Assembly: GCA_023255625.1 (NCBI GenBank)
Contig: JAHFLF010000002.1
Coordinates: 39,734-103,733 of the forward strand
DNA: 64,000 nt
From: Candidatus Harrisonbacteria bacterium
GTDB taxonomy: Bacteria; Patescibacteriota; Minisyncoccia; UBA6257; 1-14-0-10-44-23
Direction: 5' to 3'
Shown here: positions 18,610 through 52,249 of the stretch, piece after piece
Position numbering within the stretch: the stretch's first letter is position 1
Layout: the number at the start of each line of letters is the position of its first letter
The notes under the pieces: model-generated
Told to the model about the DNA's origin: nothing
Database searches by the model: none
What the model saw: only the letters and a program-made list of their open reading frames with translations
Position numbers and translations under genes: made by a program

Positions 18610-20268
<1,659 letters not shown>

Positions 20269-20378: not shown

Positions 20379-20666
20379 TCAAACGAGTACGGCTAGCACA
20401 TCATCTTCATCTCCGACCAAATATTTTTTTCCTTCAATTTCTATCTCATCCGGACCGTATTTTTTGAATAAAACTTTGTCGCCGACTTTAACCGTCATAG
20501 CAACCAGTTTTCCCTCGACAGTTTTACCCGGGCCGACAGCCACCACCGTACCCATCATGGGTTTTTCACCGGAGCTGTTCTCTGGCAGTACAATTCCCGA
20601 CTTGGTTGTTTTTTCAGCGCTAAGCCCCTCAATAAATAGCCGATTAGATAGTGGTTTAAAGTTCAT
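20379..20666 (-). CDS. groS: Co-chaperonin GroES (Cpn10)
   Basis: MNFKPLSNRLFIE...KTTKSGIVLPE...GTVVAVGPG. Confidence 0.9.
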   Translation of the reverse strand: MNFKPLSNRLFIEGLSAEKTTKSGIVLPENSSGEKPMMGTVVAVGPGKTVEGKLVAMTVKVGDKVLFKKYGPDEIEIEGKKYLVGDEDDVLAVLV

Positions 20667-20776: not shown

Positions 20777-22339
20777 CTACTTAGTCGGCGCCAAATTTAT
20801 ATAACCGGCATAATCAATGCCAAATCTTTGTTGGCTGCCGACGCTCTGTACGGTATAAACAGCAATTTTATTTTTACCCTTGGCAAGGTACGGAGCAATG
20901 TTGAGTACGGTTGGCGTGCTGGGAACGATCAAACCGCGTTTCTGCGGCGGTACGCTGTAGATACTCACGCCATTCACGCGCACTTCAATCTGCTTGTTGG
21001 TGCTTAAAACTGCTAAATAACCCTCGGCTGGTGCTGCCGGTAGATCAACTGTTTCCACCGCAACCATAATTGTATTTTGAACCGGGCCTTTACCATTTTC
21101 CTGCATCCCGGGTCGAAAACCAATCCAGGAGGAGTCGGGCAGGGTGGCTTCCCACGGTTGGGTCGTGCCCGGCAAAATAACCGACGGGCGCAGCTTGCTC
21201 GCTTCATATTCTACATAATGATCCTCGTCTTGACTATGGAAGTACTGCTGCGACTGGGTGGTGATTTTTAGTTCGTTAGCGGCGATACTCCCGAGCTGTG
21301 ATTCTACGCGGAGGGCAATTTTTTGCGCGCGTGCGGCAGCCGTTCTGTCGGCTTTTGGTACATCGTCCTCTCTAAGGCATTTTTGGCTATCAATGTTATT
21401 TTTGAAAAGATCAGCGCTCATGTCCCGGAGCCCGTCAACTGCTACAGCATACAGAAGATTAATAGTGTAAGCCGCGCGCACGCCATTTTTAATCGTTTTG
21501 AAGTTATTGATTCGCGTGATCGCACGATCCCGAACTTGCATAACGCTAATTTTGGGATCAGGAATAGGATTATTATCTTCTTGGAATTGTAAAAGCTGGC
21601 TCACGGAAGTCTGACAGATCTGCTTGCTTAGTTTATCTAAAACAAATTTTGCCTCTTTCGTGATGGCGGCGACTGCTTTAGTTGCTGTTTGTGGAATAGA
21701 AATTTCCGGAAGACGCACAACGGCGACCGGCGTTCCTTCGGCGCGTTTTGCGGCTGTACCAGAAAGAGGCAGGCCACTTGGGCCGGCGCCGGCCAGACTG
21801 GCAAAATTGGCCCACCCGGAAACGGTCGAAACCGTGCTGATTACCTCCCCAGCCGCAATAATCAGCGGGTCTGAAAACAGTGAAGCAGTGCCAATGATTG
21901 AGGCAAATGTCTCGCTGACAACGGCGGTAGCGCCCGTCACATCACCCAAAAAAGCCAGAGGTGTTGGGACACCGACCACCGCCAGTGCCACGCCAACGAT
22001 CACTGGCAGGCCGGTTGGTGCATCAGGAATGCGGCCATAGTTTGGCGCAAACACGCCAACCCGTTCATTACCATCGCTCCCAAATTTGATAACTTGTCCG
22101 CCCGATAATGGATTAAGTGGTTCTCGTCTCTCAACCGGTGATTTGTCGATTGACTCTGCCTGACTGGCCGAAAACTGTGCGCTCTGATTAGCGACATAAA
22201 TAATTCCGAGCGCCATGCCAAAAACAATGCCGACGATAGCCCAGGCGTACCAGCTGTGGACGCGGTGACGGCCAACGATGGTAAAGTCTTTCTTAATGTC
22301 CGCAACCGTCTTTTCGCCGAGGTTGTGTTTGTTCTCCAT
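20777..22339 (-). CDS. Membrane-anchored protein, paralog A of a tandem family with a shared N-terminal module and large unknown ectodomain
   Basis: N-terminus ...ADIKKDFTIVGRHRVHSWYAWAIVGIVFGMALGIIYVANQSAQFSASQ is near-identical to the N-termini of the two downstream paralogs. Confidence 0.5.
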   Translation of the reverse strand: MENKHNLGEKTVADIKKDFTIVGRHRVHSWYAWAIVGIVFGMALGIIYVANQSAQFSASQAESIDKSPVERREPLNPLSGGQVIKFGSDGNERVGVFAPNYGRIPDAPTGLPVIVGVALAVVGVPTPLAFLGDVTGATAVVSETFASIIGTASLFSDPLIIAAGEVISTVSTVSGWANFASLAGAGPSGLPLSGTAAKRAEGTPVAVVRLPEISIPQTATKAVAAITKEAKFVLDKLSKQICQTSVSQLLQFQEDNNPIPDPKISVMQVRDRAITRINNFKTIKNGVRAAYTINLLYAVAVDGLRDMSADLFKNNIDSQKCLREDDVPKADRTAAARAQKIALRVESQLGSIAANELKITTQSQQYFHSQDEDHYVEYEASKLRPSVILPGTTQPWEATLPDSSWIGFRPGMQENGKGPVQNTIMVAVETVDLPAAPAEGYLAVLSTNKQIEVRVNGVSIYSVPPQKRGLIVPSTPTVLNIAPYLAKGKNKIAVYTVQSVGSQQRFGIDYAGYINLAPTK

Positions 22340-22362
22340 AAAATTTACTGTACTATGCCCTA

Positions 22363-23382
22363 TTAATTCAGTTTTAGCGGTTCAAGTGGTGATTTTGGAG
22401 AATTAAAAGCATCTTGCCGATAATAACGCAATAAGCCGTTAACGCCAGAGCCAAAATCGTCGGTCATCTTGTAGTATTTTGCAATCATTGAATAAAGATA
22501 AAATTCATTAGTTATCGAAGAGGAATTTTCTGTGAAAGGAGTCGTGCCCAATTCACGATCGCAATTAGATCCTTTTAGTCCTTTGCGCGCTCCATATTTG
22601 CAAATAACATGCCCTCTTATTTTCCTATGCCCAAATTCATGAACAATGGATGGCAGTATATAAACATCTTTCTCTGGACTGATTCCGGTCATAACATGAA
22701 ACCATCCTTTTACGCATAAATGTATATTTCTCTTCCCTGTAGCACCTTCAACATATGCCGGTTGAAACGGGCCGCATTCGGCACCATTTCTAACAATACT
22801 TTTAACATTTTCGATAATATAGTCGCCTAGCGGCTTCCCATCGGGAACATAAGAGGCAAAACCGGCACTATTTTTTGTTAAGGAATTAAAAAATAGCATA
22901 GCCGACGCGACATCTGATTCCTCGGACGGACAAGGGAATTTCGCGCCCTTTCTATTCAAAAACCCTTTTAGTTTAGAAGCATTGGCTCTCCACCAGTCAT
23001 TTTGCTCCGCACAGCTGGCGTATCCCGGCATTGGCGGCAAACCAGCCGATGGCGCAGCCGGTACAGAGGTGTATCCAGGTGGCAAATCAGATGCCGAGGC
23101 GATAATCAGTTCATCAATATCAGCATCCGCTTCTTCTGCGATCGGAATACCATAATCTAAGCCCCCCTCCTCGTTACTGCTCGGAGCGTAATATTTAGCC
23201 GCCTGCGACGCGCTAAACTGCGCGGATCGATTCGCCACATACACAATGCCGAGCGCCATGCCGAAGACAATGCCTACGATGGCCCAGGCGTACCAAGCAT
23301 GGACTCGCTGTTTACCGACGATCGTGAAATCTTTTTTAATGTCCGCAACCGTCTTCTCGCCGATGTTGTGCATATCGGGCAT
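22363..23382 (-). CDS. Membrane-anchored putative zinc metallopeptidase (HExxH), paralog B of the tandem family
   Basis: Same N-terminal module (KKDFTIVGKQRVHAWYAWAIVGIVFGMALGIVYVANRSAQFSASQ). Ectodomain contains VHEFGH. Confidence 0.5.
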   Translation of the reverse strand: MPDMHNIGEKTVADIKKDFTIVGKQRVHAWYAWAIVGIVFGMALGIVYVANRSAQFSASQAAKYYAPSSNEEGGLDYGIPIAEEADADIDELIIASASDLPPGYTSVPAAPSAGLPPMPGYASCAEQNDWWRANASKLKGFLNRKGAKFPCPSEESDVASAMLFFNSLTKNSAGFASYVPDGKPLGDYIIENVKSIVRNGAECGPFQPAYVEGATGKRNIHLCVKGWFHVMTGISPEKDVYILPSIVHEFGHRKIRGHVICKYGARKGLKGSNCDRELGTTPFTENSSSITNEFYLYSMIAKYYKMTDDFGSGVNGLLRYYRQDAFNSPKSPLEPLKLN

Positions 23383-23533
23383 ATTTATTTAATTATTATT
23401 TTTTTATGCGAAAGTAATACTATAAAGAATATTCTCATCCAAAAATTTGTCAACCGAAAAACCAAAACCGTCCGCCAGATGGCGGACGGTTTTGGGAAAT
23501 GGTGGTTAAACCATTTCCCCTATTACTTACTAC

Positions 23534-24328
23534 TTAGGGTTGGCTACCAGAATTAAGACTCGGCAACAGTCCTCCATCTTCATTTGATTTTTCTCCACCG
23601 GGTGTTATCGGACCAGTTTCTTCTCCAGCCGGAGGTGGAGGTGCTCCGCCAGGACCATTCCCGGGGTTTCCTGGAAGAGTAGAGTTTCTTTCGCAATATA
23701 CGCTAAAATAAACAGTTGCTGATTGTGCTCTTGAAATGTACTTCCCCTCTTTTGCGTGAAAACCAGGAGTTTCCTCTCCTTCAGGCGCAGAAGTAACAAG
23801 CTTGCATTTTGGATCTCCATCCGGCTTAGCTATCCTAAGCGTACACTTGTCGGCTGCCACATCGCACTTATCTCCTTCGTCGAAAGCCGCGGTATATTGC
23901 CTATTAAACGAGCCATTACACTTCTCTATTGCTTTTACATTTGCCTGATGCACGGCATTCATAACTTTTTCTTCTGCCTTTTTTGCCTTATCGCTTTTAT
24001 CCTCTCCACTTTGATAACTAATCGCAAGAGACCAATCAGCAGAAGTTATGGCCACCTCGGCCGGTGTATCCGCATATACCGTAATGTCTTTAGAAAACGG
24101 ACACATTTTTGTATTTCCTGACGACGAAGAACCCCCGCCACCATCGGCGCGGCTGGCGCTAAACTGCGCGGAGCGGTTGGCGACGTAGACGATACCGAGA
24201 GCCATACCGAAAACAATGCCGACAATGGCCCAGGCATACCAGCTGTGGACGCGCTGTTTGCCGACGATCTTAAAATCCTTTTTTAAATTTGCAACTGCAT
24301 CCTCGGCCTGATTCGACTGCTGATCCAT
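23534..24328 (-). CDS. Membrane-anchored Cys-rich protein with Gly/Pro-rich tail, paralog C of the tandem family
   Basis: Same N-terminal module (KKDFKIVGKQRVHSWYAWAIVGIVFGMALGIVYVANRSAQFSASR). Gly/Ser linker, 8 Cys, C-terminal PGNPGNGPGGAPPPPAG. Confidence 0.5.
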   Translation of the reverse strand: MDQQSNQAEDAVANLKKDFKIVGKQRVHSWYAWAIVGIVFGMALGIVYVANRSAQFSASRADGGGGSSSSGNTKMCPFSKDITVYADTPAEVAITSADWSLAISYQSGEDKSDKAKKAEEKVMNAVHQANVKAIEKCNGSFNRQYTAAFDEGDKCDVAADKCTLRIAKPDGDPKCKLVTSAPEGEETPGFHAKEGKYISRAQSATVYFSVYCERNSTLPGNPGNGPGGAPPPPAGEETGPITPGGEKSNEDGGLLPSLNSGSQP

Positions 24329-24345
24329 ATAATTAATAAATAAAA

Positions 24346-24813
24346 TTATTTTTTGAATAATGGCTTCAAGACATCGTAACGACTAACGACGCCAACTAAT
24401 TTTCGCTGCGGATCGATGACCGGGATTGGATTAATCGCGTGATGACTCTGAAAAGCTTTAACTACCTCTTCATACGAAGAGGTGCTGGCGAGCGAAAAAG
24501 GATCAACATTCATAATGTCTTTAGCCGTTAACTTCGTAACCGAGGCGACATCATCAGAAAAATCCTTTTGATCCTTGCTAAAAACCGGTAGATCGCCGAG
24601 CACCTTCTGCAGCGTCGGTAAATGAATACCCATTTGCCCGCTAATCAAATTATATTCAGTGATAATTCCAACTAAAGTATTTTCTGCATCAACAACCGGC
24701 ACGCCATTGAATTTATTGTCGGTCAAAAGTTTGGCAACATCAACTAGCGCCGTTTCCGGGCGTACCGTCATCGGCTTTTCAGTCATGATGTCTCGGATAC
24801 TTAATTCAGTCAT
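24346..24813 (-). CDS. CBS-domain pair protein
   Basis: Two CBS repeats (IMTEKPMTVRPETALVDVAKLL... / IMNVDPFSLASTSSYEEVVKAF...). Confidence 0.75.
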   Translation of the reverse strand: MTELSIRDIMTEKPMTVRPETALVDVAKLLTDNKFNGVPVVDAENTLVGIITEYNLISGQMGIHLPTLQKVLGDLPVFSKDQKDFSDDVASVTKLTAKDIMNVDPFSLASTSSYEEVVKAFQSHHAINPIPVIDPQRKLVGVVSRYDVLKPLFKK

Positions 24814-24869: not shown

Positions 24870-25820
24870 TTACTTATGGGCGCCGGTGAGCTGGTTGCGA
24901 TGCAAAAAATCGTAAATGTTCAATAGGCCCTTTACCGCATCTCCGGCCGAGATATTGTTTTGCTTGTAAAGAACATCCGAGACATCGCCAGCCGCCCAAA
25001 TCCCAACGCAGGAGCTTTGCTGCGTTTTATGATCAACCACAATCTCGTTGCCCGGATTCAGAGTAACAAGCTCTTTAACAAAATCAGAATTTGGGAGCGA
25101 GCCGATTTCCACAAAGAGCCCTTGGGCCTGTATTTCTTTTGTCTGGCCAGTCGCTTTGTCTTGATATTTCACTGAATTAACCACTTTTTCTCCGAGTACC
25201 TCCGTGGGAACCGCCCCATATATAATTTTTACTTTCGGATGGCTTTTAACCTTATCTTGCGTGACTGAATCCCCCTTTAGCTCGGTGCCGCGCACCAGCA
25301 GCGTGATGCTACTAGCATACGGGATTGAATCAACGATTGCCTCGAGACCGGCATTGCCAGCACCGACAACAACCACATCTTTATTCTTAAAAAGCGGCGC
25401 GTCGCAGGTGCTGCAAAATACAACGCCCTTGCCGTCCAAACGATCCTCGCCCGGGATGCCGAGCCGTCGCCTCCGGCTGCCGGAGGCAATCATAATGGTC
25501 TTAGTTTCAAAAATTTTACCGCTAGAGGTTGTAAGCGAAAAATGGCCAGCCGGCGGGCCTCCGTCAACTTTCGCAACTGCGGTAACCCGTTCGCCGTCAA
25601 CAATCTCTATTCCGTGAGCGCGAACATGCTCCTCCAAATCCTGCGCGAGTTTTAATCCAGAGATGGCCTTAGTACCAACCCAGTTATAAATTTCGTTCGA
25701 GACAATTGATTGTCCACCGAAAGTTTCGGTGATGAGCGCCGTCTTAATTTGTTTTCGGCCGGCATAGACGCCGGCGGCGACAGCCGCCGGCCCGCCTCCG
25801 ATGATGATTAATTCAAACAT
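24870..25820 (-). CDS. trxB: Thioredoxin-disulfide reductase
   Basis: IIIGGGPAAVAAGVYAGR FAD site, CSTCD redox-active disulfide, second GAGNAGLEA NADPH site. Confidence 0.9.
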   Translation of the reverse strand: MFELIIIGGGPAAVAAGVYAGRKQIKTALITETFGGQSIVSNEIYNWVGTKAISGLKLAQDLEEHVRAHGIEIVDGERVTAVAKVDGGPPAGHFSLTTSSGKIFETKTIMIASGSRRRRLGIPGEDRLDGKGVVFCSTCDAPLFKNKDVVVVGAGNAGLEAIVDSIPYASSITLLVRGTELKGDSVTQDKVKSHPKVKIIYGAVPTEVLGEKVVNSVKYQDKATGQTKEIQAQGLFVEIGSLPNSDFVKELVTLNPGNEIVVDHKTQQSSCVGIWAAGDVSDVLYKQNNISAGDAVKGLLNIYDFLHRNQLTGAHK

Positions 25821-25822
25821 AA

Positions 25823-25921
25823 ATTGGTTAGTTGGTTACTTGGTTGGCTGGTTAGTTAGTAATGCAAATAGCAAGACAAATTAATTGATTTTTTACCAAC
25901 TAACTAGCTAACTGACTAACA
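25823..25921. repeat. Imperfect inverted repeat built from GGTTAGTTGG/TTGGTT units
   Basis: ttggttagttggttacttggttggctggttagttagt ... accaactaactagctaactgactaac in the trxB-grx spacer. The same unit (agttagttggttagttggttgcttggtt) recurs at about 1274-1312 inside the first GT gene. Confidence 0.4.
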
Positions 25922-25927
25922 AAGTAA

Positions 25928-26161
25928 CTATCCCGCCAGGGCGCGCTCCACCTCGCTCTTATTAAAACCGACAAAAATCTGCCCATCAATATCAATCACC
26001 GGCACACCCATCTGACCGGATTTAGTAACCATCTCGTCGCGAGCCGCATCGTCCTCGGCAACATTCACATCAGAATAAGCCAGCCCTTTGCTTTTGAAAT
26101 ATTCTTTGGCCATTTTGCAGTATACGCAGGTCGGAGTCGAATAAACTTTGATTGTTTTCAT
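25928..26161 (-). CDS. Glutaredoxin/NrdH-like small redoxin
   Basis: 77 aa, CVYC active site, KVYSTPTC...GVPVI fold signature. Confidence 0.85.
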   Translation of the reverse strand: MKTIKVYSTPTCVYCKMAKEYFKSKGLAYSDVNVAEDDAARDEMVTKSGQMGVPVIDIDGQIFVGFNKSEVERALAG

Positions 26162-26345
26162 AGAGTAATCGCTAATAATGCGAATGATTAGGTAATAATG
26201 CGAATGAGAGATGAACGATAAATATTATAGCATGCGAAGAAAATAGAAGAAGTCTGAATCGGGGGCGGTTTGCTGACAAAAAGGCGGCCGTAAAGAAGTC
26301 CTGGCCGATCTTTTGTCAGCAAACCGCCAACATGCGCAAACTACT

Positions 26346-27023
26346 CTACTTCTTAGCTAGCTCATCGTCAATCGCCTTTTTGAAGGAATCGTATGGGTAC
26401 GCCCCCTCGATGAAAACATTGTTAACAAAGCTGGCTGGCGTACCGCTGATTCCTAGATTAATTCCGTCTTCTAAATCTTTTTTCACCTCGGCGGCGGTTG
26501 CCGGATTCTTCAAACACGCGCCAAAAGCGGTGGTATCAAGCTGAAGTGAGCCGGCCAGTTGACTAAAATCTAGCTTCGGAAGCTCGCTTTGCTTTTCAAA
26601 CAGCGCGTCATGATATTCCCAATACTTTCCCTGCGCTCCGGCACACTGCGCTGCGATTGCCGCAGGAGTCGCAAAAGGATGGATATTTTCAAGCGGAAAA
26701 TCGCGATGCACCATGCGTAACTTCCCAGTTTTTACATATTCTTCCCGCAATCGACTTTCTACCGTATCAAACTGTTGCTTGCAAAATGGACACTGAAAAT
26801 CGCCGAAGATAATCATCGTTACCGGCGCATTAACATCTCCAAGCACAGCATCGTCGTCGATAGACAAAGTCGCCTTCCGCGCATCGCCGACTGGCACTAT
26901 CTCCGATTCCGCTCCCGGCTTATACATCAGTGCGCCGGCAATCAGCACTCCGGCAATGATAATACTGACCGGCAGTAATAATTTTGATGTTTTGCCCGAC
27001 GACTCTATTTGTTGTTCATTCAT
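26346..27023 (-). CDS. DsbA-family thiol:disulfide oxidoreductase, N-terminal TM anchor
   Basis: FGDFQCPFCKQ (CxxC) in a thioredoxin-like domain, with an N-terminal hydrophobic helix. Confidence 0.8.
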   Translation of the reverse strand: MNEQQIESSGKTSKLLLPVSIIIAGVLIAGALMYKPGAESEIVPVGDARKATLSIDDDAVLGDVNAPVTMIIFGDFQCPFCKQQFDTVESRLREEYVKTGKLRMVHRDFPLENIHPFATPAAIAAQCAGAQGKYWEYHDALFEKQSELPKLDFSQLAGSLQLDTTAFGACLKNPATAAEVKKDLEDGINLGISGTPASFVNNVFIEGAYPYDSFKKAIDDELAKK

Positions 27024-35354: not shown

Positions 35355-38300
35355 CTAGATGTAGGTAACGTCGGCGATCGTGAACGGAGCAACGCCAGTT
35401 TCAAGCTGGATGTTGGCCGTTGTACCGTCGTTCCAGAGAACATCGCCAGCCGCGTTGATCAACAGACCGAGACTCTCGGTGTTGGTGTCCGGGTTAGCAA
35501 AGCTCGTGGAGACTACGCGAATCTGCGCTACATCCGGGCTGTTGGCATAGATTTCTATGCTCGGCTCGAAGGTTACGCTGCAAGTGTCGCCAACCGTCGG
35601 AGTGCAAGTCTTGTTAGTCGCACTACCGAAGGCGGTTCCATCTGTGCGAACCATTGACACTGTAAAGGCGGTCGTGCTTGAAGCAACGGCGCTGCCGATG
35701 AACTTCAAGGAGACCGACTGCAGGGTCAATGTGTAGCTGCCAGTGTTGTTGAAGGTAATATTCGCAAGTTTGTCGGTCGCCTGACGGCTGCGGCTGGATG
35801 TAGTACCAAGCACTTCAGCTGCCATACCGAACTTCGTGCGGTAAACCTTCTGCGTGTTACTGGCAATCGTCGTACTGCCACCAGCGGCGCTACCAGAAAC
35901 GGTAACGGTCGCGGATGCAGAACCGACTGCTTTAGCCGTGATATCGGTCGCGGCTTGGATCTTGAAGACATGGCTGCTGTTACTGACAGCACCACCCGAA
36001 CTTACATCCGGAACATCTGCCTTCAAGGTTAGAGCCAGAGTCTTGTTCTTCTCAACCACCACGCCCGAACCAAGCAACGCTAGGTCAATGGTCGAAGTTG
36101 TGATTGAAACCGAGGTTGCCTGAACAGTGCCGGAAACAGCGGCACCGGTCGAATCAACCAATTGGAAGTTCTGGAACGAAGTCTTACCCGTAGCACCGCT
36201 AGCGATTGTGTCGCTGACGATCACGCGAGTAATGCGGACTGCATCAACACCGTTGTTCGCGAAGTTCATCGTGTACAATGGGTTGTTCCTTGTGTCCATA
36301 GACAAGTTCTGGGCCTTTGGCGAGGTGTTGTGCTTCGATACCGTCAAGGTCGGACCAGTGGAGATCGTTACGGTCTGACCAGCTTGCTCGCTGGTAAACG
36401 CAATCGAGCTACCAGAGATTCCGCCGTTGGCGGTCCAGTTCTTGAAGTCGATGACAGAGGCGTAATCTGCCGCGGTTGAACTGTTGAGAATGTCAGCAGT
36501 TACATCGAAGCGAGTTGAACCACCTGCCGGGACAACTACGTCACCAGAGAAGGTCATGCCAGTTTCAGTGGCAGCAACCGACTGCTGGGTGTAACCGTAC
36601 TGCGCGCTACCAACCCAAACCCTCAAATTCTGAAGGTCTAAGCCAGAGTTTGCATCGCGGTCAAGAGTAATCGTGCGGATCGTGGCTGACTGGGCCGAAG
36701 AGGCGGTCAGAACGAAGGCGGCGATTCTGGCGTCAGAGGCACCGTTAATGTATGTCGGTCCGTTTAGTGACGGATCAACAGCAACGGTCAAAGGAGTGCT
36801 GTTAACAGTACGAGTCGCACCGGTAGCTGCACCAGAGTCAGCGGCCTGGAAGGAAACTTGTCCCTCCAAAGCACTGCTGCCGGCGACGAGAGCCGCGGCG
36901 ATCGTGTTGATATCAGCGTTGCTACCAATGTCCGCAATCACCGAGAAGACCTGGGTGGTGTTCGGGGCGATTACGAAGTTGATGTTGCTGCTGCTCGTAC
37001 CAAAGTGACAAGTCAGGACTGTGGTCGAGGAGACCGTACAGTCATTGTTGCCACCGGCACCAACGATCGTAGTGATTGAACTACCAAGCTGTCGTCCATC
37101 ATCCGCAACAATGCGAACATTGGAGAGATCGTCCTGGTAAGTAGCTGCGGCAACCCATCCCTCGGTCGGAACCGGGCTGATGCGCTGCGTCAAGCTGACA
37201 TCCAGGAACTTAACCTTCACAGCTTCACCGGCAGCATAAATGGTGAACTTAGCGAGGGTTACGCCCGAGGCGCCAACCGGAACATCATAAGTCGGGGAAT
37301 CCGAAGCGGTCGAAACCGTTATGGAACCCTTGTTGATGGTGATCGAGGTCGAGCTACCGCTCAAACTGGCAGTGATGTTCTGGTGGTACTGCGAGTCCAT
37401 AGCAACAGCATCAAACGGACGAAGGATCGAGAATTGAATGCTTCGGTTTGGGCTGCCCGTCACATCAGCGTAAATCGAAATGTTCGAGTTACCGGTCTGA
37501 AGACGAACCGGGTTAGCGGCCATGCTGAAGACAATCGTGTTTGCGCCCATCGGAACTGAAGCCACCTGCGTTCCGTTTACACGGAGAGCAATGTTCTTCA
37601 GGTCGCCGACATTTGCCGAGCCAACCAGGGTAACCTGGATGCTCTTCAAATCAACCGGGCTGTTGGTAACTGCAGCGGTCCACGAGCCAACATTGACACC
37701 ATTGGTGCCGGCGTTAACTGTGCTACCAACTGCCTGCGCCGTAAGAGTCAGACCGGCGATGGACGGGTTGCTAACGGTTGTAACGGTGAGGACGTTACCA
37801 CGGACCGGAAGACCGGCCACCGGAGCATTACCCGAGGTCATAACACCTGTCAGATCAAAGGCGATTGTGTTACCAGAAGCGGCCGAGGTCGAAACATCAG
37901 CACGCAATTCACCGCGCCACGACTGGCCGGCCGGAACATTCAAGTTCAAGCCAGAGAAGGTAGCGATGCCGCCGTTAAGCGACTGGAATTGAGCGATAAC
38001 TGCACCGGTCGCAACATCAGCGAGATAAAGGTTGCTGATGAGCGAGTCAGAGAGAACACCAGTCTTGGTGAAGGAAAGGCCTGTAACGGTAACACCCATA
38101 GTGGACGGAGCCGTAAAGGTGTAACCAGCTACGCGAACCTGGCCTGCGCCAGAGATGATGCTGCCAGTAACATTGCCGGTGTTATCCGCAGCGATCCAAA
38201 GTGAACCGCTCGAGTTAACAATCGGAGCCGGAGTACCTGGAGTTGCCGGAGTTCCTGGCATGGACGGAGCCATGGCCATAAACCTTGCGCGGGACAACGG

Positions 38301-38738
38301 ACCGAAGTATCCGGTGTTTGAAACACCGCTAGCCATCTGCCATTTCATGACAGCGGCTTTGGTGAGAGCACCAAAGTAGCCGGTGTTGTAACCAGCGCCA
38401 AGGTGACCACCTGAAATCAAAGCGTTTTGGAGGCAGGTAACATCTGTACCTCGAGATCCGACCATCAGGTCGCGAGTAAAGGTGCAAGATGAGCTCACTG
38501 CCATGCTACCGCCCTGCAAAGCAGCCAAGGCAGCTGTCAGCTGGGCAATCTGTGCCTGGAGCTGTTCAACTGTCATGGTCTGTGCACCGGCGACGCTTGC
38601 AAACGAGCCAAGGCCCGAAAGCGAAACAATCGTCGTTGCAGTCAGAACTGCGGCAGCAACTTTTTTGGAAAACGTACTCATGATATATAAGTTGCTAAAT
38701 AACTTTATTACTAATGGATTTATAATTCTTTTCGGCAA
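35355..38738 (-). CDS. Giant secreted/cell-surface protein (1127 aa): signal peptide, coiled coil, peptidoglycan-binding (PG_binding_1-like) module, long Thr/Ser/Ala/Val/Gly-rich beta-repeat region
   Basis: N-terminal ...AAAVLTATTIVSLSGLGSFASVAGAQT signal; QLQAQIAQLTAALAALQ coil; DVTCLQNALISGGHLGAGYNTGYFGALTKAAVMKWQMASGVSNTGYFGPLSRARF resembles PG_binding_1; then about 900 aa of T/S/A/V/G-rich sequence. Confidence 0.6.
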   Translation of the reverse strand: MPKRIINPLVIKLFSNLYIMSTFSKKVAAAVLTATTIVSLSGLGSFASVAGAQTMTVEQLQAQIAQLTAALAALQGGSMAVSSSCTFTRDLMVGSRGTDVTCLQNALISGGHLGAGYNTGYFGALTKAAVMKWQMASGVSNTGYFGPLSRARFMAMAPSMPGTPATPGTPAPIVNSSGSLWIAADNTGNVTGSIISGAGQVRVAGYTFTAPSTMGVTVTGLSFTKTGVLSDSLISNLYLADVATGAVIAQFQSLNGGIATFSGLNLNVPAGQSWRGELRADVSTSAASGNTIAFDLTGVMTSGNAPVAGLPVRGNVLTVTTVSNPSIAGLTLTAQAVGSTVNAGTNGVNVGSWTAAVTNSPVDLKSIQVTLVGSANVGDLKNIALRVNGTQVASVPMGANTIVFSMAANPVRLQTGNSNISIYADVTGSPNRSIQFSILRPFDAVAMDSQYHQNITASLSGSSTSITINKGSITVSTASDSPTYDVPVGASGVTLAKFTIYAAGEAVKVKFLDVSLTQRISPVPTEGWVAAATYQDDLSNVRIVADDGRQLGSSITTIVGAGGNNDCTVSSTTVLTCHFGTSSSNINFVIAPNTTQVFSVIADIGSNADINTIAAALVAGSSALEGQVSFQAADSGAATGATRTVNSTPLTVAVDPSLNGPTYINGASDARIAAFVLTASSAQSATIRTITLDRDANSGLDLQNLRVWVGSAQYGYTQQSVAATETGMTFSGDVVVPAGGSTRFDVTADILNSSTAADYASVIDFKNWTANGGISGSSIAFTSEQAGQTVTISTGPTLTVSKHNTSPKAQNLSMDTRNNPLYTMNFANNGVDAVRITRVIVSDTIASGATGKTSFQNFQLVDSTGAAVSGTVQATSVSITTSTIDLALLGSGVVVEKNKTLALTLKADVPDVSSGGAVSNSSHVFKIQAATDITAKAVGSASATVTVSGSAAGGSTTIASNTQKVYRTKFGMAAEVLGTTSSRSRQATDKLANITFNNTGSYTLTLQSVSLKFIGSAVASSTTAFTVSMVRTDGTAFGSATNKTCTPTVGDTCSVTFEPSIEIYANSPDVAQIRVVSTSFANPDTNTESLGLLINAAGDVLWNDGTTANIQLETGVAPFTIADVTYI

Positions 38739-48081: not shown

Positions 48082-48152
48082 CGGGATGTGGTGTAGTGGT
48101 AGCACGCGTGGCTGGGGGTCATGCAGTCCGGGTCCGATTCCCGGCATCCCGA
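48082..48152 (+). tRNA. tRNA-Pro (anticodon GGG)
   Basis: Hand-folded: acceptor CGGGATG/CATCCCG, D-arm GTGT-AGTGGTA-GCAC, anticodon stem CGTGG/TCATG (2 G-U) with loop CTGGGGG, T-arm CCGGG-TCCGATT-CCCGG, discriminator A. The GC-rich island starts immediately 3'. Confidence 0.75.
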
Positions 48153-48414
48153 CCTTTAAATAAATTATGACGGGTAAATATATGGCAGACTCAGTTTCGG
48201 CTGATCCCTTCAGGGTTGTCAGCTTTTCGGCTACCTGCTATGTTGGGGTAGCGAGCCAGAAGCTCTGGCTTCTGTCCTCGCTACCCCGTCGTGCAGAATA
48301 GGCAAAAAGCTGCACAACGCGGTGTAAAGATACTTTTGAGACGGGTTCTGGAGTAAGATAAAATTTCGGTTGTTCGGCCACCGAAATTAAAGTGCCGACT
48401 TAGGGAGATTCCCG

Positions 48415-48849
48415 ATGCAGACGCATGAGCCACTTTTTTGTGTCGCTGGCGGATTTCCCGCTGCAACAATCGCCTGTTTCGGTCCGACCGCGACGGCACA
48501 TTTCGTCGAGATGACCGCAGTAGAGGCGGTCGGCTGGATCCGCGCCAAGGACACGGCAACACTGAAGCTCCTTTGGCGATACGGCCCAGAGGAGTCGCTG
48601 CTTCGTGAATTCATGGCTGGTCAAGGCCTGGCCGACCTGCTCAAGGGACGCGATCGCCCAGACCGTCTGAACGGCAGCCGCTTCGAACGGCTCGAGGCGA
48701 TCATCGTCTTTCGCACCGAAAGCGGGGCTGTCCGTATTCGTCTGTTGACAATGGAGCCAACCTGTCCCCTCGACTCTGAAGAAGAGCCGACGGTCGAGGT
48801 TCAACTGCCACCAGAGGAGATCGCTGACATCAACCAACTCGGCGAGTGA
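48415..48849 (+). CDS. Hypothetical protein (GC-rich island)
   Basis: GGGAG SD 8 nt before the ATG. Competing minus-strand ORFs exist in this high-GC stretch, so the frame choice is tentative. Confidence 0.3.
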   Translation: MQTHEPLFCVAGGFPAATIACFGPTATAHFVEMTAVEAVGWIRAKDTATLKLLWRYGPEESLLREFMAGQGLADLLKGRDRPDRLNGSRFERLEAIIVFRTESGAVRIRLLTMEPTCPLDSEEEPTVEVQLPPEEIADINQLGE

Positions 48850-48964
48850 GTAACCTCGCCAACCGCACCAGGGGCCCCGACGCAAATGCGCTCGGGGCCC
48901 TCGGACTATTCGGTCTCAACGCATAAGCTCCGAAGTCCCGCCAAGATGAGATATAATCGGCTAA

Positions 48965-49033
48965 CCCCCAAACTTTTCCCCAAGATGAGCAGGGATACCT
49001 TTTACTGCTCCCTTTGGGGAAAAGTTTGGGGGG
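48965..49033. repeat. Core-conserved palindromic element, copy 1 (+ orientation)
   Basis: Arm ccccaaacttttcccc, core CAAGATGAGCAGGGATACCTTTTACTGCTCCCTTTGG, arm ggggaaaagtttgggg; the arms are exact reverse complements. Confidence 0.6.
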
Positions 49034-49038
49034 CCGGC

Positions 49039-49103
49039 AACCAAAAATTCCCGCCATAGGGAGCAGTAAATCCTATCTGCTCATCTTGACGGGAATTTTG
49101 GGA
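49039..49103. repeat. Core-conserved palindromic element, copy 2 (- orientation, variant core), convergent with copy 1
   Basis: Arms ccaaaaattcccg / cgggaattttgg; core variant CCATAGGGAGCAGTAAATCCTATCTGCTCATCTTG. Confidence 0.55.
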
Positions 49104-49264
49104 TTGCGCTTTTATTAAAAGACTATTTTTGTTTTTTATATTTCTAAATTAAAATCTTAAAAATCACAAAGGGCCGGACGAAGATCGTCACGGCCCTTGT
49201 GCTGTTGCGAGGACACTTACTTCGGGCGGTCCTCGACTTTGCCCGTTGAGCTTGCGCTCCATGT

Positions 49265-49873
49265 CTACCTCCTCCGTCGCGACTGCGACGGGATCTCGTA
49301 GCCGCCGTAGCGGCTGCGAGGCAGGTTCACGCCTGCCGAGCGGTGGGTCCATGTCCCGCCGCCGTTGCCGCTGTTGTACCCGCCGACATATGCCGGCTGA
49401 TACAGCGGCGTAGAAGCCGACGACGCCCCGATCGCGACGCCGGTCGCATATGACTGCGACTGCGTCGTCGGCTGGGAGTCCGGCGGCTCCCATCCGGCCT
49501 CGATGAGGAGCTTCCTCATCTCGTCCGGCGAAACGCCCCCCAGCCCCGTCGTCGCGGCCGCGCTGACCGCAGCCGCGTTGGCAGGCGTCGGCGTCGCGGA
49601 GTGGGCGCGAATCCATTCCTTGATCAAGGAAGGCGGACCGTTGAACTGGTCTCCTCCCTCCTTGATCAATCGCCTCGTGCCGTCGGGGTCGGTCGAGTTC
49701 GTCGACCCCTCCGAGGAATGCCGCGTGAACTCCACGGATTCCTCGGGCTCGTCCGACTCGACGATCTGAACGAACGTCTGCCGGACCTCTTCCATCGGAT
49801 TCACGGCCCGACACCCCGTCGCGACACCCAGTGTCGTCGCGATGACACACAGAACGATGAGGGGGTTCCTCAT
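49265..49873 (-). CDS. Putative lipoprotein (GC-rich island)
   Basis: Likely start MRNPLIVLCVIATTLGVATGC (lipobox ATGC) with GGAGG SD. Ser/Thr/Gly-rich mature region. Confidence 0.5.
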   Translation of the reverse strand: MRNPLIVLCVIATTLGVATGCRAVNPMEEVRQTFVQIVESDEPEESVEFTRHSSEGSTNSTDPDGTRRLIKEGGDQFNGPPSLIKEWIRAHSATPTPANAAAVSAAATTGLGGVSPDEMRKLLIEAGWEPPDSQPTTQSQSYATGVAIGASSASTPLYQPAYVGGYNSGNGGGTWTHRSAGVNLPRSRYGGYEIPSQSRRRR

Positions 49874-49930
49874 GTTCGTCTCCTTCCGGCCCGTAGGCCT
49901 CCCCAACTGCACTATGCGTTGGTGGAATAT

Positions 49931-49959
49931 ATTATACACCTATTGTATCAAAATGTCAA
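49931..49959 (-). promoter_or_regulatory. Consensus sigma70 promoter TTGACA-17-TATAAT driving the 49265..49873 gene
   Basis: Minus-strand read: tttgacattttgatacaataggtgtataat. -35 region motif ttgacattttgat shared with the other three island promoters. Confidence 0.55.
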
Positions 49960-50000
49960 ATCTAACACCAGCGAATTCAGCAAGTAAGTAAAAGTCCCGA

Positions 50001-50070
50001 GCCCCTAAACTTCCCGCCAAAGGGAGCAGTAAAAGGTATCCCTGCTCATCTTGGCGAGAAGTTTAGGGGC
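50001..50070. repeat. Core-conserved palindromic element, copy 3 (- orientation)
   Basis: Arms gcccctaaacttc / gaagtttaggggc flank the exact complement of the copy-1 core. Confidence 0.6.
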
Positions 50071-50085
50071 TCATTTTATTCATAA

Positions 50086-50292
50086 AAATGAAAAGAGCCG
50101 AGTACCAGTGAAGGTATCCTCGGACTCTTTTCGCTACCGGTATTTCTCGGGTCTTCCTGCCCGCGTTCCCACCGGTAGGAACAACTCTCACTGGAACGAA
50201 CTTTCACCTCTCAATCTGGGAATACTCCTTTTCTTCAGCTACTCTCAACCAGATTCCCCTTTGGTTGAGTGGCTGTGGCGCGAAGTTGCGCC
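50086..50292 (-). repeat. 207-bp duplicated element, copy 1, starting 1-2 nt after a stop codon and ending in a hairpin plus U-run
   Basis: About 99% identical to 52250..52456. On the transcribed strand it begins with a GGCGC-AACTTC-GCGCC hairpin, contains CTCAACCA/TGGTTGAG and GTTCC-TACCGGTGG-GAAC hairpins, and ends GAGTCCGAGGATACC..GGTACTCGGCTC + TTTT. The ORF-track proteins 50051..51097 and 52221..52619 on the plus strand just translate it. Confidence 0.6.
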
Positions 50293-50293
50293 G

Positions 50294-50998: not shown

Positions 50999-51079
50999 AA
51001 AACCCTCCCTCTCCGACCCTACTTGGGGTACGGACCAACGGCTTCTGGCCGCTGGCAATCGGGCATTTCCGACCTAAAT

Positions 51080-51109
51080 ATTATAGCATATAAATAGCAT
51101 CTCTGTCAA
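51080..51109 (-). promoter_or_regulatory. Consensus sigma70 promoter TTGACA-18-TATAAT driving 50294..50998
   Basis: Minus-strand read: cttgacagagatgctatttatatgctataat. Confidence 0.5.
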
Positions 51110-51234
51110 GCAATCAAATTGTTATAAAAACGGCACGCCCCCAAAGTACAGTTCTTCTGTATCTCCAGGGGCGCATGCTCGGACTGATTTTGCTTGATTC
51201 CGATGAAGTCCGTAGACATCGGAGCAATTGGTGA

Positions 51235-51900: not shown

Positions 51901-51980
51901 GATCGTCTCCCTTCCCTCCGTGCAAAAACACAGAGGAACGCAGCACAACGCCGCGTTTAACGGTCATTTCCGTCAAAATT

Positions 51981-52009
51981 AACATAGCATTTTATTATCA
52001 AAATGTCAA
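51981..52009 (-). promoter_or_regulatory. sigma70-like promoter TTGACA-17-TATGTT driving 51235..51900
   Basis: Minus-strand read: tttgacattttgataataaaatgctatgtt. Confidence 0.45.
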
Positions 52010-52049
52010 ATCTAACACCGCGAGTTCAACAAGTAAGTGCAAAGCCGCA

Positions 52050-52118
52050 AACCTAGAGTTTCCCCCAAGATGAGCAGGGATACCTTTTACTGCTCCCTTT
52101 GGGGGAAACTCTAGGTTT
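52050..52118. repeat. Core-conserved palindromic element, copy 4 (+ orientation)
   Basis: Arms aacctagagtttccccc / gggggaaactctaggttt; core identical to copy 1. Confidence 0.6.
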
Positions 52119-52130
52119 GCGATTCGGAAT

Positions 52131-52202: not shown

Positions 52203-52249
52203 TGATTAATCAACATCGGTATGTGTTTTGGGTTAAATACATTCAACAA

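What the first reader, a model, noticed from the sequence alone, without database searches (positions are those of the whole stretch)
20777..24328. Three tandem paralogs share a 45-aa N-terminal anchor module fused to unrelated ectodomains, one with an HExxH motif
The three consecutive minus-strand genes begin with almost the same segment, (A)DIKKDFTIVG(K/R)(Q/H)RVH(S/A)WYAWAIVGIVFGMALGI(V/I)YVAN(R/Q)SAQFSAS. This is a short cytoplasmic basic motif, one TM helix and a conserved juxtamembrane SAQFSAS. After that point the proteins are completely unrelated: a 470-aa domain of unknown function, a 290-aa domain containing VHEFGH (a candidate zincin protease), and a 210-aa Cys-rich domain with a Gly/Pro tail. 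The module is not a prepilin leader, lipobox or Tat signal. Conservation of the cytoplasmic and membrane part with cassette-like swapping of extracellular 'heads' suggests a lineage-specific sorting or anchoring module, possibly a polymorphic surface-effector family in an episymbiont-like organism, or a substrate tag for a dedicated protease or secretion step.
Basis: seen in the sequence. Interest (0 to 1): 0.8.

Follow-up and report, generated by a model that had tools for sequence, protein, structure and literature searches.

The report
CPR-specific N-terminal export/anchor module
Three neighbouring genes of an ultra-small (CPR/Patescibacteria) bacterium start with the same unannotated ~61-residue export-and-membrane segment, which is found on hundreds of otherwise unrelated surface or secreted proteins of this lineage and so looks like a new kind of protein-sorting signal.

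Summary
Genes A (20777-22339), B (22363-23382) and C (23534-24328), all on the minus strand, share their first ~61 residues at 72-85% identity. Their remaining parts show no detectable similarity. This is not a recent duplication: synonymous sites in the module are saturated (pS 0.63-0.76) and dN/dS is about 0.05-0.12.

An exhaustive profile search found the module in 305 protein clusters. It is always at the extreme N-terminus, on proteins of 47-1386 aa. The consensus is an amphipathic helix, then KDFxVVGKxRVxSW, then a 21-residue GxxxGxxxG transmembrane helix, then VANRSG(E/Q)Fxx(S/G)xA. The spacings are essentially invariant.

The fused parts fall into at least 52 unrelated clusters. Those that can be recognised are extracytoplasmic (subtilases, LamG, Ig/fn3, beta-helix, CBM, dockerin). 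Cysteine counts are mostly even.

No Pfam or NCBIfam model covers the module, and it fails the prepilin, lipobox, Tat, YSIRK, KxYKxGKxW and ESPR tests. The module genes sit in a conserved slot, TrxB-CBS-[module genes]-GroES.

My best reading is a lineage-specific extended Sec-type signal sequence. It is either cleaved at the invariant S-x-A or retained as an anchor; this remains unresolved. A carries a CBM-like jelly roll, C belongs to a recurrent Cys-rich family, and B (HExxHxxxxxH) is an orphan whose protease nature is untested.

The parts
23534..24328 (-). Gene C, 264 aa: module, Gly/Ser linker, Cys-rich ectodomain (6 Cys) and Gly/Pro-rich tail
   Evidence: ORF. It is identical to database protein P0007. 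Its ectodomain belongs to a Cys-rich family that includes the genes in the same position in L005 and L010 (jackhmmer).
22363..23382 (-). Gene B, 339 aa: module, acidic/Pro-rich linker and an orphan ectodomain with HExxHxxxxxH
   Evidence: ORF. The only database match is itself (P0010, called from Met4). There are no Pfam, NCBIfam, PHROG or PDB hits.
20777..22339 (-). Gene A, 520 aa: module, FGSDGNE linker motif, Gly/Ala/Val-rich hydrophobic stretch, helical region and a C-terminal jelly-roll domain
   Evidence: ORF. It is identical to P0006.
24146..24328 (-). N-terminal module of C (residues 1-61)
   Evidence: Alignments. Family HMM score 103.7 bits.
23200..23382 (-). N-terminal module of B (residues 1-61)
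   Evidence: Alignments. Family HMM score 101.8 bits.
22157..22339 (-). N-terminal module of A (residues 1-61)
   Evidence: Alignments. Family HMM score 103.5 bits.
22187..22252 (-). Transmembrane helix of A (W30-N51) with the G37xxxG41xxxG45 glycine zipper. The equivalent segments are B 23230-23295 and C 24176-24241.
   Evidence: Kyte-Doolittle mean above 2 over residues 29-51. G38/G42/G46 of the family profile are present in 138/149, 149/150 and 123/150 sequences, and the W31-to-N52 distance is 21 in 138 of 139.
22157..22165 (-). S59-Q60-A61 of A, a candidate signal-peptidase-I (-3,-1) site at the end of the module. The equivalents are B 23200-23208 (SQA) and C 24146-24154 (SRA).
   Evidence: Family profile: position 60 is S in 105 and G in 23 sequences; position 62 is A in 137 of 139. 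The distance N52 to A62 is 10 in 137 of 139. Pro never occurs at +1.
20780..21199 (-). C-terminal beta-sandwich domain of A (residues 381-520), a galactose-binding-like / CBM-type jelly roll
22609..22641 (-). H248-E-F-G-H252-R-K-I-R-G-H258 in B: an HExxH motif with a third His at metzincin spacing
   Evidence: Sequence. HExxH occurs in only 2 of 129 cargo parts, against 0.17 expected from composition. The fold is not verifiable.
23693..24103 (-). Cys-rich core of C's ectodomain (Cys at residues 76, 137, 155, 162, 175 and 212)
   Evidence: Cys positions. Family membership.
23462..23495 (-). Intrinsic-terminator-like hairpin (15-bp stem, 10 G-C pairs, T tail) just after C
23426..23453 (-). Sigma-70-like promoter match (TTGACA-16-TATTCT) ahead of B. 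B and A are only 23 nt apart, so they are probably one transcription unit.
   Evidence: This is a consensus match only.
24346..24813 (-). CBS-pair gene ending 17 nt upstream of C. It marks the upstream edge of the conserved slot.
   Evidence: Pfam CBS, E 5e-27. The same CBS-then-module gene pair occurs in L005, L010, L011 and L016.
20379..20666 (-). groES, the downstream edge of the conserved slot (groEL is at 18610-20262)
   Evidence: Pfam Cpn10 and Cpn60. Synteny with L010 and L006.

Best explanation
The shared segment is a lineage-specific, extended Sec-type signal sequence of a Parcubacteria-group CPR clade. It marks a large, heterogeneous set of exported proteins.

Anatomy, in family-profile numbering (window residue = profile position minus 1):
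- a variable polar tip;
- a conserved amphipathic helix, (A/V)(E/D)K-V-V-x-x-L-x-K-D-F;
- a basic turn, x-V-V-G-K-x-R-V-(H/R)-S;
- a 21-residue transmembrane helix that starts with a W-(Y/H)-A-W aromatic belt and carries a GxxxGxxxG zipper;
- an exactly 10-residue outer segment, N-R-S-G-(E/Q)-F-x-x-(S/G)-x-A.

Proposed mechanism. The positive n-region and the hydrophobic helix insert through Sec with the N-terminus inside and the C-terminus outside. This exposes a Pro/Gly/Ser-rich linker and a disulfide-bonded ectodomain. The invariant (S/G)-x-A, held at a fixed distance from the membrane, is the site where signal peptidase I (or a related protease) detaches the cargo. The unusual conservation of the n-region, of one face of the helix and of the outer motif indicates a further sorting step, such as docking to a particular membrane partner or secretion site, as with YSIRK/GXXS signals in Firmicutes.

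Shown here: the module is real, ancient and under strong purifying selection. It is always N-terminal. Its geometry is fixed. It is fused to unrelated extracytoplasmic domains. It is interchangeable with an ordinary signal peptide on homologous cargo. No curated family covers it.

Inferred, not shown: Sec dependence, cleavage at S-x-A, and the existence of a partner.

In this window the module delivers a conserved Cys-rich protein (C), an orphan with a metzincin-like HExxHxxxxxH motif (B) and a probable glycan-binding protein (A). All three sit in a conserved genomic slot next to a DsbA/Grx/TrxB redox cluster.
For: - Reality and selection: the modules are 72-85% identical while the cargo is unrelated. 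pS is 0.63-0.76 and dN/dS 0.05-0.12. Tandem paralogs in L009 show the same pattern, with 84% nucleotide identity but only 59% at third positions.
- Family size: 305 clusters at 50% identity have E<=1e-3 and 141 have E<=1e-10. The module begins within the first ~30 residues in every case.
- Fixed geometry: F20-W31 is 11 residues in 139/139, W31-N52 is 21 in 138/139, and N52-A62 is 10 in 137/139.
- Candidate cleavage site: A62 is present in 137/139, position 60 is S or G in 128/141, Pro never occurs at +1, and Pro becomes common from +3.
- Cargo: 52 BLAST-unlinked clusters among 129 cargo parts. Pfam and NCBIfam hits are all extracytoplasmic, including Peptidase_S8 with prodomain, Laminin_G_3, fn3, Big_7/9, beta-helix, CBM9, dockerin, PHB depolymerase and pectate lyase.
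- Disulfides: Cys counts are even in 99 cargo parts and odd in 12 (p 3e-18). A DsbA-like/Grx/TrxB cluster lies in conserved synteny.
- Interchangeable with a plain signal peptide: window protein 35355-38738 has an ordinary Sec signal peptide, yet its C-terminal 330 aa are 33-36% identical (E 1e-30 to 1e-42) to module-bearing proteins in L007. Other ordinary signal peptides occur in the window.
- No curated family covers the module, and the motif strings do not appear in the literature library.
Against: - The hydrophobic helix is 21 residues long with aromatic belts at both ends, and the outer segment is 10-11 residues. By established rules for signal peptidase I substrates (h-regions usually 7-15 residues, c-regions 3-9; from my own knowledge) this looks more like a stable signal-anchor, so cleavage is uncertain.
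- Almost no cargo has another anchor: 1 of 129 has a C-terminal TM segment and there is no real LPXTG. Yet many cargo parts look like adhesins.
- The one homologous cargo with an ordinary signal peptide carries a PG_binding_1 domain, which the module-bearing homologues lack. This hints that the module itself supplies retention.
- No SignalP-type predictor, proteomic data or experiment was available.
- The partner or sorting step is pure inference.
- The periodicity of conservation in the helix is only marginally significant (permutation p 0.055).
- The taxonomic range rests on two named MAGs plus unnamed metagenome contigs.
Confidence: 0.5

Rival explanations
1. The module is an uncleaved type II signal-anchor. 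It exports the ectodomain and then stays in the membrane as the sole tether. The glycine-zipper face and the NRSG(E/Q)F juxtamembrane motif pack against a partner or against other copies. The Pro/Gly/Ser-rich linker acts as a stalk through the cell wall, and the S-x-A has a structural role or is used only for occasional shedding.
For: - The TM helix is a fixed 21 residues with W/Y belts at both ends.
- Conservation peaks with period 4: W34, G38, G42, G46, V50.
- Cargo parts lack any other anchor, with 1 of 129 having a C-terminal TM.
- Linkers are Pro-rich from +3.
- The homologous cargo with a plain signal peptide carries PG_binding_1, while the module-bearing homologues do not.
Against: - The near-invariant Ala at the exact point where homology ends, S/G at -3 and the absence of Pro at +1 are the signature of a signal peptidase I site and have no obvious role in an anchor.
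- Several cargo types are classically soluble secreted enzymes, including subtilases with prodomains, PHB depolymerase and pectate lyase.
Confidence: 0.33
2. The module is the recognition tag of a dedicated, still unidentified CPR sorting or processing machine, an N-terminal counterpart of the sortase/exosortase-type tags. Alternatively, the 61-residue peptide is itself a functional glycine-zipper membrane micro-protein, possibly working with the CBS-domain protein encoded immediately upstream.
For: - Conservation extends over every sub-region with invariant spacing, far beyond what Sec and signal peptidase need.
- A module-only gene of 66 aa (P0005) is kept in three independent samples.
- A CBS-pair gene overlaps or abuts the first module gene in five genomes, including the distant RVRSWHAWL subgroup.
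Against: - No candidate enzyme is seen next to module genes, and neighbourhoods other than the CBS/groES slot differ.
- P0005 has a degenerate outer motif and may be a remnant.
- The other apparent stand-alone copy (L011) is a frameshift.
- The CBS link may be simple inherited synteny.
Confidence: 0.12
3. The proteins are pilin-like subunits. The conserved N-terminal helix would be the assembly interface of a filament and the variable heads would be its exposed parts, as in type IV pilins.
For: The logic is the same, a conserved N-terminal hydrophobic helix with variable globular heads and tandem genes. CPR bacteria rely heavily on pili (PMC6744442; preprint 10.64898/2026.03.03.709456).
Against: - After the invariant Gly24 come charged residues (K/S/T-x-R-V-H/R-S), not a hydrophobic +1 residue, and position +5 is H/R/K rather than Glu.
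- There are no N_methyl/TIGR02532 hits in 125 members.
- Cargo includes 900-1386-aa multidomain proteins and enzymes.
- The recently described CPR Pam pilins use ordinary Sec signal peptides.
Confidence: 0.03
4. This is an ordinary recent tandem duplication or gene conversion with no special function for the N-terminus.
For: The three genes are adjacent and on the same strand.
Against: - Synonymous sites are saturated while the peptide is conserved.
- The downstream parts are unrelated.
- The same module occurs in hundreds of clusters and in several genomes.
Confidence: 0.01

Closest known systems
YSIRK/GXXS signal peptides of Firmicutes surface proteins (e.g. S. aureus protein A; PMC5962339, PMC7644249)
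   Same: Both are long Sec signal peptides carrying conserved motifs that mark a subset of surface proteins with unrelated mature parts. In YSIRK proteins the motif directs an extra sorting step (septal secretion). Both occur in monoderm envelopes.
   Different: There is no sequence similarity (no PF04650/TIGR01168 hit). In the CPR module the whole h-region and c-region are also conserved with fixed spacing. The h-region is 21 residues. The cargo lacks LPXTG anchors. It occurs in a different phylum.
KxYKxGKxW signal peptide (TIGR03715) of Gram-positive serine-rich adhesins
   Same: Both have an extended n-region rich in K, an aromatic residue, G-K and W (compare K-D-F-x-V-V-G-K-x-R-V-x-S-W), and both sit on large surface proteins.
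   Different: The spacing differs and there is no HMM match. No accessory SecA2/Y2 context is seen in the window. The cargo is not serine-rich repeat protein.
ESPR (extended signal peptide region, PF13018) of proteobacterial autotransporters/TPS proteins
   Same: Both are conserved N-terminal extensions that make signal peptides 50-60 residues long on large secreted proteins.
   Different: There is no homology. ESPR conserves only the extension, not the h- and c-regions. ESPR occurs in diderm hosts.
Type IV prepilin-like N-terminal (N_methyl) module fused to diverse heads (pilins, pseudopilins, many Planctomycetes/Verrucomicrobia proteins)
   Same: The design is the same: a conserved N-terminal membrane helix combined with swappable extracellular heads.
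   Different: The defining G|F-x-x-x-E cleavage/methylation motif is absent and the residues after the conserved Gly are charged. There are no HMM hits.
RsgI-type anti-sigma factors of Clostridia (conserved N-terminal cytoplasmic domain, TM helix, variable CBM sensor heads)
   Same: Both form paralogous families with a conserved cytoplasmic N-terminus, one TM helix and variable carbohydrate-binding ectodomains.
   Different: The cytoplasmic part here is only ~28 residues. There is no adjacent sigma factor. The cargo includes hydrolases and proteases. No RsgI_N hit was found.

Membership tests
Generic Sec (type I) signal peptide | Positively charged n-region followed by a hydrophobic h-region, giving N-in/C-out topology | tested here: met
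   K18, K25, R27 and H/R29 precede the hydrophobic stretch. All recognisable cargo domains are extracytoplasmic and Cys counts are even.
Generic Sec (type I) signal peptide | Small uncharged residues at -3 and -1, and no Pro at +1 | tested here: met
   Position 60 is S in 105 and G in 23 sequences. Position 62 is A in 137 of 139. Pro occurs at +1 in 0 of 129.
Generic Sec (type I) signal peptide | Short h-region (about 7-15 residues) and c-region of 3-9 residues | tested here: not met
   The h-region is 21 residues and the c-region 10-11 residues, both invariant. The limits quoted are from my own knowledge of E. coli studies, and monoderm signals are longer.
Generic Sec (type I) signal peptide | Actual cleavage by signal peptidase I | not testable with these tools
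   This needs N-terminal proteomics or a reporter assay.
Type IV prepilin (class III) signal | G(-1)|[FMLIV](+1), Glu at +5, and an N_methyl (PF07963/TIGR02532) match | tested here: not met
   After G24 come K/S/T-x-R-V-(H/R)-S. No such family appears among the hits of 125 members or of A, B and C at E<=1.
Lipoprotein signal (SPase II) | Lipobox L-[AS]-[GA]-C with an invariant Cys at +1 | tested here: not met
   No conserved Cys occurs anywhere in the 64-position profile.
Tat signal | Twin-arginine motif S/T-R-R-x-F-L-K before a weakly hydrophobic h-region | tested here: not met
   The consensus is G-K-x-R-V-(H/R)-S-W, with single Arg residues separated by other residues, and the h-region is strongly hydrophobic.
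YSIRK/GXXS, KxYKxGKxW and ESPR extended signal peptides | Match to the family HMM or motif (PF04650/TIGR01168, TIGR03715, PF13018) | tested here: not met
   No hit at E<=1 for A, B or C. No family is matched by more than 5 of 125 members.
Zincin / metzincin metallopeptidase (protein B) | HExxH zinc-binding motif in a hydrophobic context | tested here: met
   S-I-V-H248-E-F-G-H252. The motif is rare in this family: 2 of 129 cargo parts against 0.17 expected.
Zincin / metzincin metallopeptidase (protein B) | Extended HExxHxxGxxH motif with a third His and a conserved Gly, plus a Met-turn | tested here: inconclusive
   The third His is at the right spacing (H258), but the Gly at +8 is replaced by Ile (a Gly sits at +10). 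A possible Y-S-M-I turn lies ~44 residues downstream and is not diagnostic.
Zincin / metzincin metallopeptidase (protein B) | Zincin fold or sequence homology to a peptidase family | tested here: inconclusive
   No Pfam, NCBIfam or PDB hit. No homologue among 5.8 billion proteins. The single-sequence AlphaFold2 model has pLDDT 33 and is unusable.
Galactose-binding-like / CBM jelly roll (C-terminal domain of A) | Beta-sandwich jelly-roll fold matching sugar-binding modules | tested here: met
Galactose-binding-like / CBM jelly roll (C-terminal domain of A) | Conserved ligand-binding residues or actual glycan binding | not tested
   No residue-level comparison was made. Confirmation needs binding assays.
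Polymorphic toxin / effector systems | Variable C-terminal toxin domains, each followed by a cognate immunity gene | tested here: not met
   The cargo is adhesin-, lectin- or hydrolase-like. The B-A gap is 23 nt, and the C-B gap holds only a terminator and a promoter-like site.

The most novel reading that the evidence does not exclude
The module is the address tag of a dedicated, undescribed protein-sorting system of CPR bacteria, an N-terminal counterpart of the sortase/exosortase tags. Its fixed-geometry peptide (cytoplasmic KDFxVVGKxRV motif, glycine-zipper helix, NRSGEFxxSxA) would be read by a specific membrane partner or protease. The released 61-residue peptide, or stand-alone copies such as P0005, may have a function of their own, possibly together with the translationally coupled CBS-domain protein.
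Probability: 0.18. Interest if true: 0.9.

Novelty: new variant of a known kind. Interest (0 to 1): 0.7.

Why it matters
CPR/Patescibacteria are a very large, mostly uncultured part of bacterial diversity. They are thought to live attached to other microbes, and how they build their surface is largely unknown. Most CPR-enriched protein families are unannotated membrane or extracellular proteins (PMC6744442).

A sequence tag that can be recognised with E-values of 1e-10 to 1e-34 would immediately define a surface or secreted proteome of lectin-like proteins, Ig/fn3 proteins, proteases and many orphans for one CPR clade. It would flag candidates for host attachment. It would also provide a handle, through phylogenetic profiling of the tag, to find the machinery that reads it.

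It would add a fourth, phylogenetically remote example to the short list of motif-bearing extended signal peptides (YSIRK, KxYKxGKxW, ESPR). It differs from those in that the membrane helix and the cleavage region are conserved as well, with invariant spacing.

Tried and rejected
- The word-indexed protein search with the module returned only 5-9 short fragments and greatly under-reports the family. The exhaustive HMMER scan was needed.
- The search for homologues of B's ectodomain found only B itself. The PDB sequence search and the single-sequence AlphaFold2 model (pLDDT 33) were uninformative, so no fold search was run for B.
- Pfam, NCBIfam and PHROGs on A, B and C gave nothing.
- The module profile against PDB sequences gave only non-significant TM resemblance, to inovirus coat protein at E 0.25-3.3. 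I rejected this as chance.
- The CPR 'Pam pilus' preprint was checked as a possible explanation. Its pilins use ordinary Sec signal peptides, so it is unrelated.
- Literature searches for the motif strings and for CPR signal peptides found no prior description.
- Of the stand-alone 'module-only' genes, L011 is a frameshift, while L001/P0005 is truly truncated with a degenerate outer motif.
- A global alignment of A with its cluster was too scrambled to use because the shared domain sits at different positions. I replaced it with a domain-level alignment.
- A regex screen of the window for signal peptidase I or sortase motifs found no candidate enzyme.
- The database names of family members are all 'hypothetical protein'.

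Full report
**1. Observation**

- A, 20777-22339, 520 aa;
- B, 22363-23382, 339 aa;
- C, 23534-24328, 264 aa.

Their first 61 residues align without gaps and 44 columns are invariant. tblastn of each N-terminus against the window recovers only the three copies, at E 1e-29 to 1e-34, and the next best hit has E 0.14. A broader family HMM run over all six reading frames also finds only these three.

Beyond residue ~61 the proteins are unrelated; the best pairwise BLASTP between the downstream parts is E 0.36.

At the DNA level the modules are only 69-77% identical. The differences pile up at synonymous sites (pS 0.63-0.76, i.e. saturated), while pN is 0.07-0.19, giving dN/dS of about 0.05-0.12. 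So this is an old duplication kept constant at the peptide level. It is not a recent duplication or a gene conversion.

**2. The module defines a large family**

The word-indexed search found only five short fragments. The exhaustive HMMER scan of 1.84 billion cluster representatives found 305 clusters at E<=1e-3 and 141 at E<=1e-10. In every listed hit the module starts within the first ~30 residues, on proteins from 47 to 1386 aa. A and C are themselves in that library as P0006 and P0007, and B is P0010, called from Met4.

The logo of 150 members shows the following, in profile numbering (window residue = profile position minus 1):
- a variable polar tip;
- an amphipathic helix with conserved V12, V13, L16, K18, D19 and F20;
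- the turn V23-G24-K-x-R27-V28-(H/R)29-S;
- a helix opening W31-(Y/H)-A33-W34, with G38, G42 (149/150) and G46 forming a GxxxGxxxG zipper;
- Y49-V50-A51-N52-R53-S54-G55-(Q/E)-F57-x-x-(S/G)60-x-A62, where A62 is present in 137 of 139 sequences.

The geometry is essentially invariant:
- F20 to W31 is 11 residues in 139/139;
- W31 to N52 is 21 residues in 138/139;
- N52 to A62 is 10 residues in 137/139.

Homology ends at A62. Position +1 is most often Ala and never Pro, and Pro becomes common from +3.

**3. What the module is fused to**

The 129 downstream parts of at least 40 aa fall into 52 clusters that BLASTP does not link. About a fifth carry recognisable domains, and all of these are extracytoplasmic:
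- Peptidase_S8 with a fervidolysin-type prodomain;
- Laminin_G_3, fn3, He_PIG, Big_7, Big_9 and Big_13;
- right-handed beta-helix / pectate lyase;
- CBM9 and dockerin;
- PHB depolymerase and exoglucanase.

Cys counts are even in 99 cargo parts and odd in 12 (binomial p 3e-18), as expected for disulfide-bonded exported proteins. Only 1 of 129 has a C-terminal hydrophobic segment, and LPXTG-like strings occur at chance level.

Together with the positive charges before the helix, this fixes the topology as N-in/C-out and the function as export.

The module is also interchangeable with a plain signal peptide. Window protein 35355-38738 starts with an ordinary Sec signal peptide (…SLSGLGSFASVAGA|QT) and a PG_binding_1 domain. 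Its C-terminal ~330 aa are nevertheless 33-36% identical (E 1e-30 to 1e-42) to the module-bearing proteins of locus L007. Other ordinary ~25-35-aa signal peptides occur in the window, so the organism uses the module for only a subset of its exported proteins.

**4. Genomic setting**

Module carriers were found in these sources:
- a Candidatus Harrisonbacteria MAG (JAHFLG01, five copies on three contigs);
- a MAG labelled Saccharibacteria (CAZLKS01, two copies);
- several metagenome contigs.

Harrisonbacteria belong to the Parcubacteria group of Patescibacteria. The window's GroEL is 79% identical to that of L006, and its TrxB is 74% identical to that of L005. The window therefore comes from a relative of these MAGs.

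The gene order is conserved:
- window: epimerase, sugar transferase | DsbA-like, Grx, TrxB, CBS, [C, B, A], GroES, GroEL, amino-acid kinase;
- L005: epimerase, sugar transferase | DsbA-like, TrxB, CBS, [two module genes], then the contig end;
- L010: CBS, [two module genes], GroES;
- L006: one module gene between GroEL and the kinase.

So the CBS-to-groES interval is a conserved slot whose content varies. The CBS gene overlaps or abuts the first module gene in five genomes, including L016 from the distant RVRSWHAWL subgroup. The CBS orthologues are 50-67% identical.

Within the window, a strong terminator-like hairpin (23462-23495) and a promoter-like site (23426-23453) separate C from B. B and A are 23 nt apart.

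**5. The three cargo parts**

- **C.** Iterative profile search shows that its Cys-rich ectodomain belongs to a family with about 17 other module proteins. These include the first genes after CBS in L005 and L010. C is therefore the conserved resident of the slot.
- **B.** It is an orphan. Only itself is found among 5.8 billion proteins, there are no Pfam, NCBIfam, PHROG or PDB hits, and the single-sequence model is unusable at pLDDT 33. Its motif S-I-V-H-E-F-G-H-R-K-I-R-G-H has metzincin His spacing (HExxHxxxxxH) but lacks the canonical Gly. HExxH is rare in the family, at 2 of 129 against 0.17 expected. A metallopeptidase is therefore plausible, but this rests on the motif only.

**6. Mechanism**

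The following are shown:
- a fixed-geometry N-terminal peptide under strong purifying selection;
- always at the N-terminus;
- placing diverse disulfide-bonded domains outside the cell;
- replaceable by an ordinary Sec signal peptide.

I infer a Sec-dependent extended signal sequence.

The near-invariant (S/G)-x-A at the exact end of homology, the absence of Pro at +1 and the presence of classically soluble enzymes among the cargo all favour cleavage by signal peptidase I. I put this at about 50%.

Several features favour a retained signal-anchor, which I put at about 33%:
- the 21-residue helix with aromatic belts;
- the 10-residue outer segment;
- the lack of any other anchor in the cargo;
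- the Pro-rich stalks;
- the PG-binding domain on the one homologue that uses a plain signal peptide.

In both cases the conservation of the cytoplasmic motif, of one helix face (period-4 peak, permutation p 0.055) and of NRSG(E/Q)F goes well beyond what Sec targeting needs. It points to an additional partner or sorting step. At the extreme this would be a dedicated machine or a functional released peptide, which I put at about 12-18%.

**7. Comparison with what is known**

The module fails the tests for prepilin, lipobox, Tat, YSIRK/GXXS, KxYKxGKxW and ESPR signals. No Pfam 2025 or NCBIfam 2026 model covers it, since no family is matched by more than 5 of 125 members. Database names are 'hypothetical protein'. 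The motif strings are absent from the paper library. The recently described CPR Pam pilus uses ordinary signal peptides.

In function it most resembles the motif-bearing extended signal peptides of Firmicutes, in which the YSIRK/GXXS motif directs septal secretion (PMC5962339). In design it resembles the pilin-type N-terminal module with swappable heads. It differs from all of these in sequence, in phylum, and in conserving the membrane helix and the cleavage region with invariant spacing.

**8. Verdict**

This is a real, widespread and apparently undescribed N-terminal export/anchoring signal of a CPR clade. I classify it as a new variant of a known kind, the specialised extended signal sequence.

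Limits:
- cleavage, the partner and the taxonomic range are inferred from sequence only;
- B's protease nature is untested.

Noticed in passing
window 24346-24813 (minus); also L005 4766-5248, L010 57-524, L011 560-1024, L016 2905-3387: A stand-alone CBS-pair gene lies immediately upstream of the first module gene in five different genomes, including the distant RVRSWHAWL subgroup. It either overlaps that gene or ends within 17 nt of it; L011 has a larger gap. The CBS orthologues are 50-67% identical. This could be inherited synteny or a functional pairing with the module's cytoplasmic motif.
   Followed up: partly
window 24870-27023 (minus): A DsbA-like thioredoxin with an N-terminal anchor, a glutaredoxin and a thioredoxin reductase sit just upstream of the CBS/module genes. 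They are syntenic in the Harrisonbacteria contig L005. This fits the even-numbered Cys content of the module cargo and the CPR-enriched MdbA-like oxidoreductase family noted in PMC6744442.
   Followed up: partly
window 35355-38738 (minus): A 1127-aa surface protein has an ordinary Sec signal peptide and a PG_binding_1 domain. Its C-terminal ~330 aa are homologous to module-bearing proteins of another genome (L007). This is a natural swap between a plain signal peptide plus wall-binding domain and the module.
   Followed up: yes
window 48082-53500: A stretch of about 5 kb has 57-61% G+C, against ~45-50% elsewhere. It starts at tRNA-Pro(GGG) (48082-48154). ORFs overlap on both strands and have no Pfam or Rfam hits. 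Two of the plausible ORFs (49265-49939 and 52456-53043, minus strand) begin with lipobox-like signals. It looks like a foreign island integrated at a tRNA, or an assembly chimera.
   Followed up: partly
window about 21740-22030 (protein A residues ~104-200): A Gly/Ala/Val/Ser/Thr-rich hydrophobic stretch has a Kyte-Doolittle 19-residue mean above 1.6 around residues 105-117. It is absent from A's relatives. It could be extra membrane segments or a low-complexity spacer, and it would complicate A's topology if it spans the membrane.
   Followed up: no
L001 6384-6584 (P0005); L011 1497-1661: There are two apparent 'module-only' genes. The L011 copy is a frameshifted full-length gene, since the +1 frame continues with IDPSSADTT… and a Cys-rich cargo. 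P0005 (66 aa, next to the mraZ/rsmH/PBP/Mur cluster) is genuinely truncated, has a degenerate outer motif, and recurs identically in three samples.
   Followed up: partly
window 23462-23495 and 23426-23453 (minus): A strong terminator-like hairpin (15-bp stem) directly after gene C is followed by a TTGACA-16-TATTCT promoter-like site ahead of B. C (probably transcribed with CBS) and B-A therefore appear to be separate transcription units.
   Followed up: no
module profile (alignment A6) against PDB sequences: The only resemblance is weak and non-significant (E 0.25-3.3), to the transmembrane segment of inovirus major coat proteins (…YAWAMVVVIVGATIG…). I treated it as chance similarity between Gly/Ala-rich single-span helices.
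   Followed up: no
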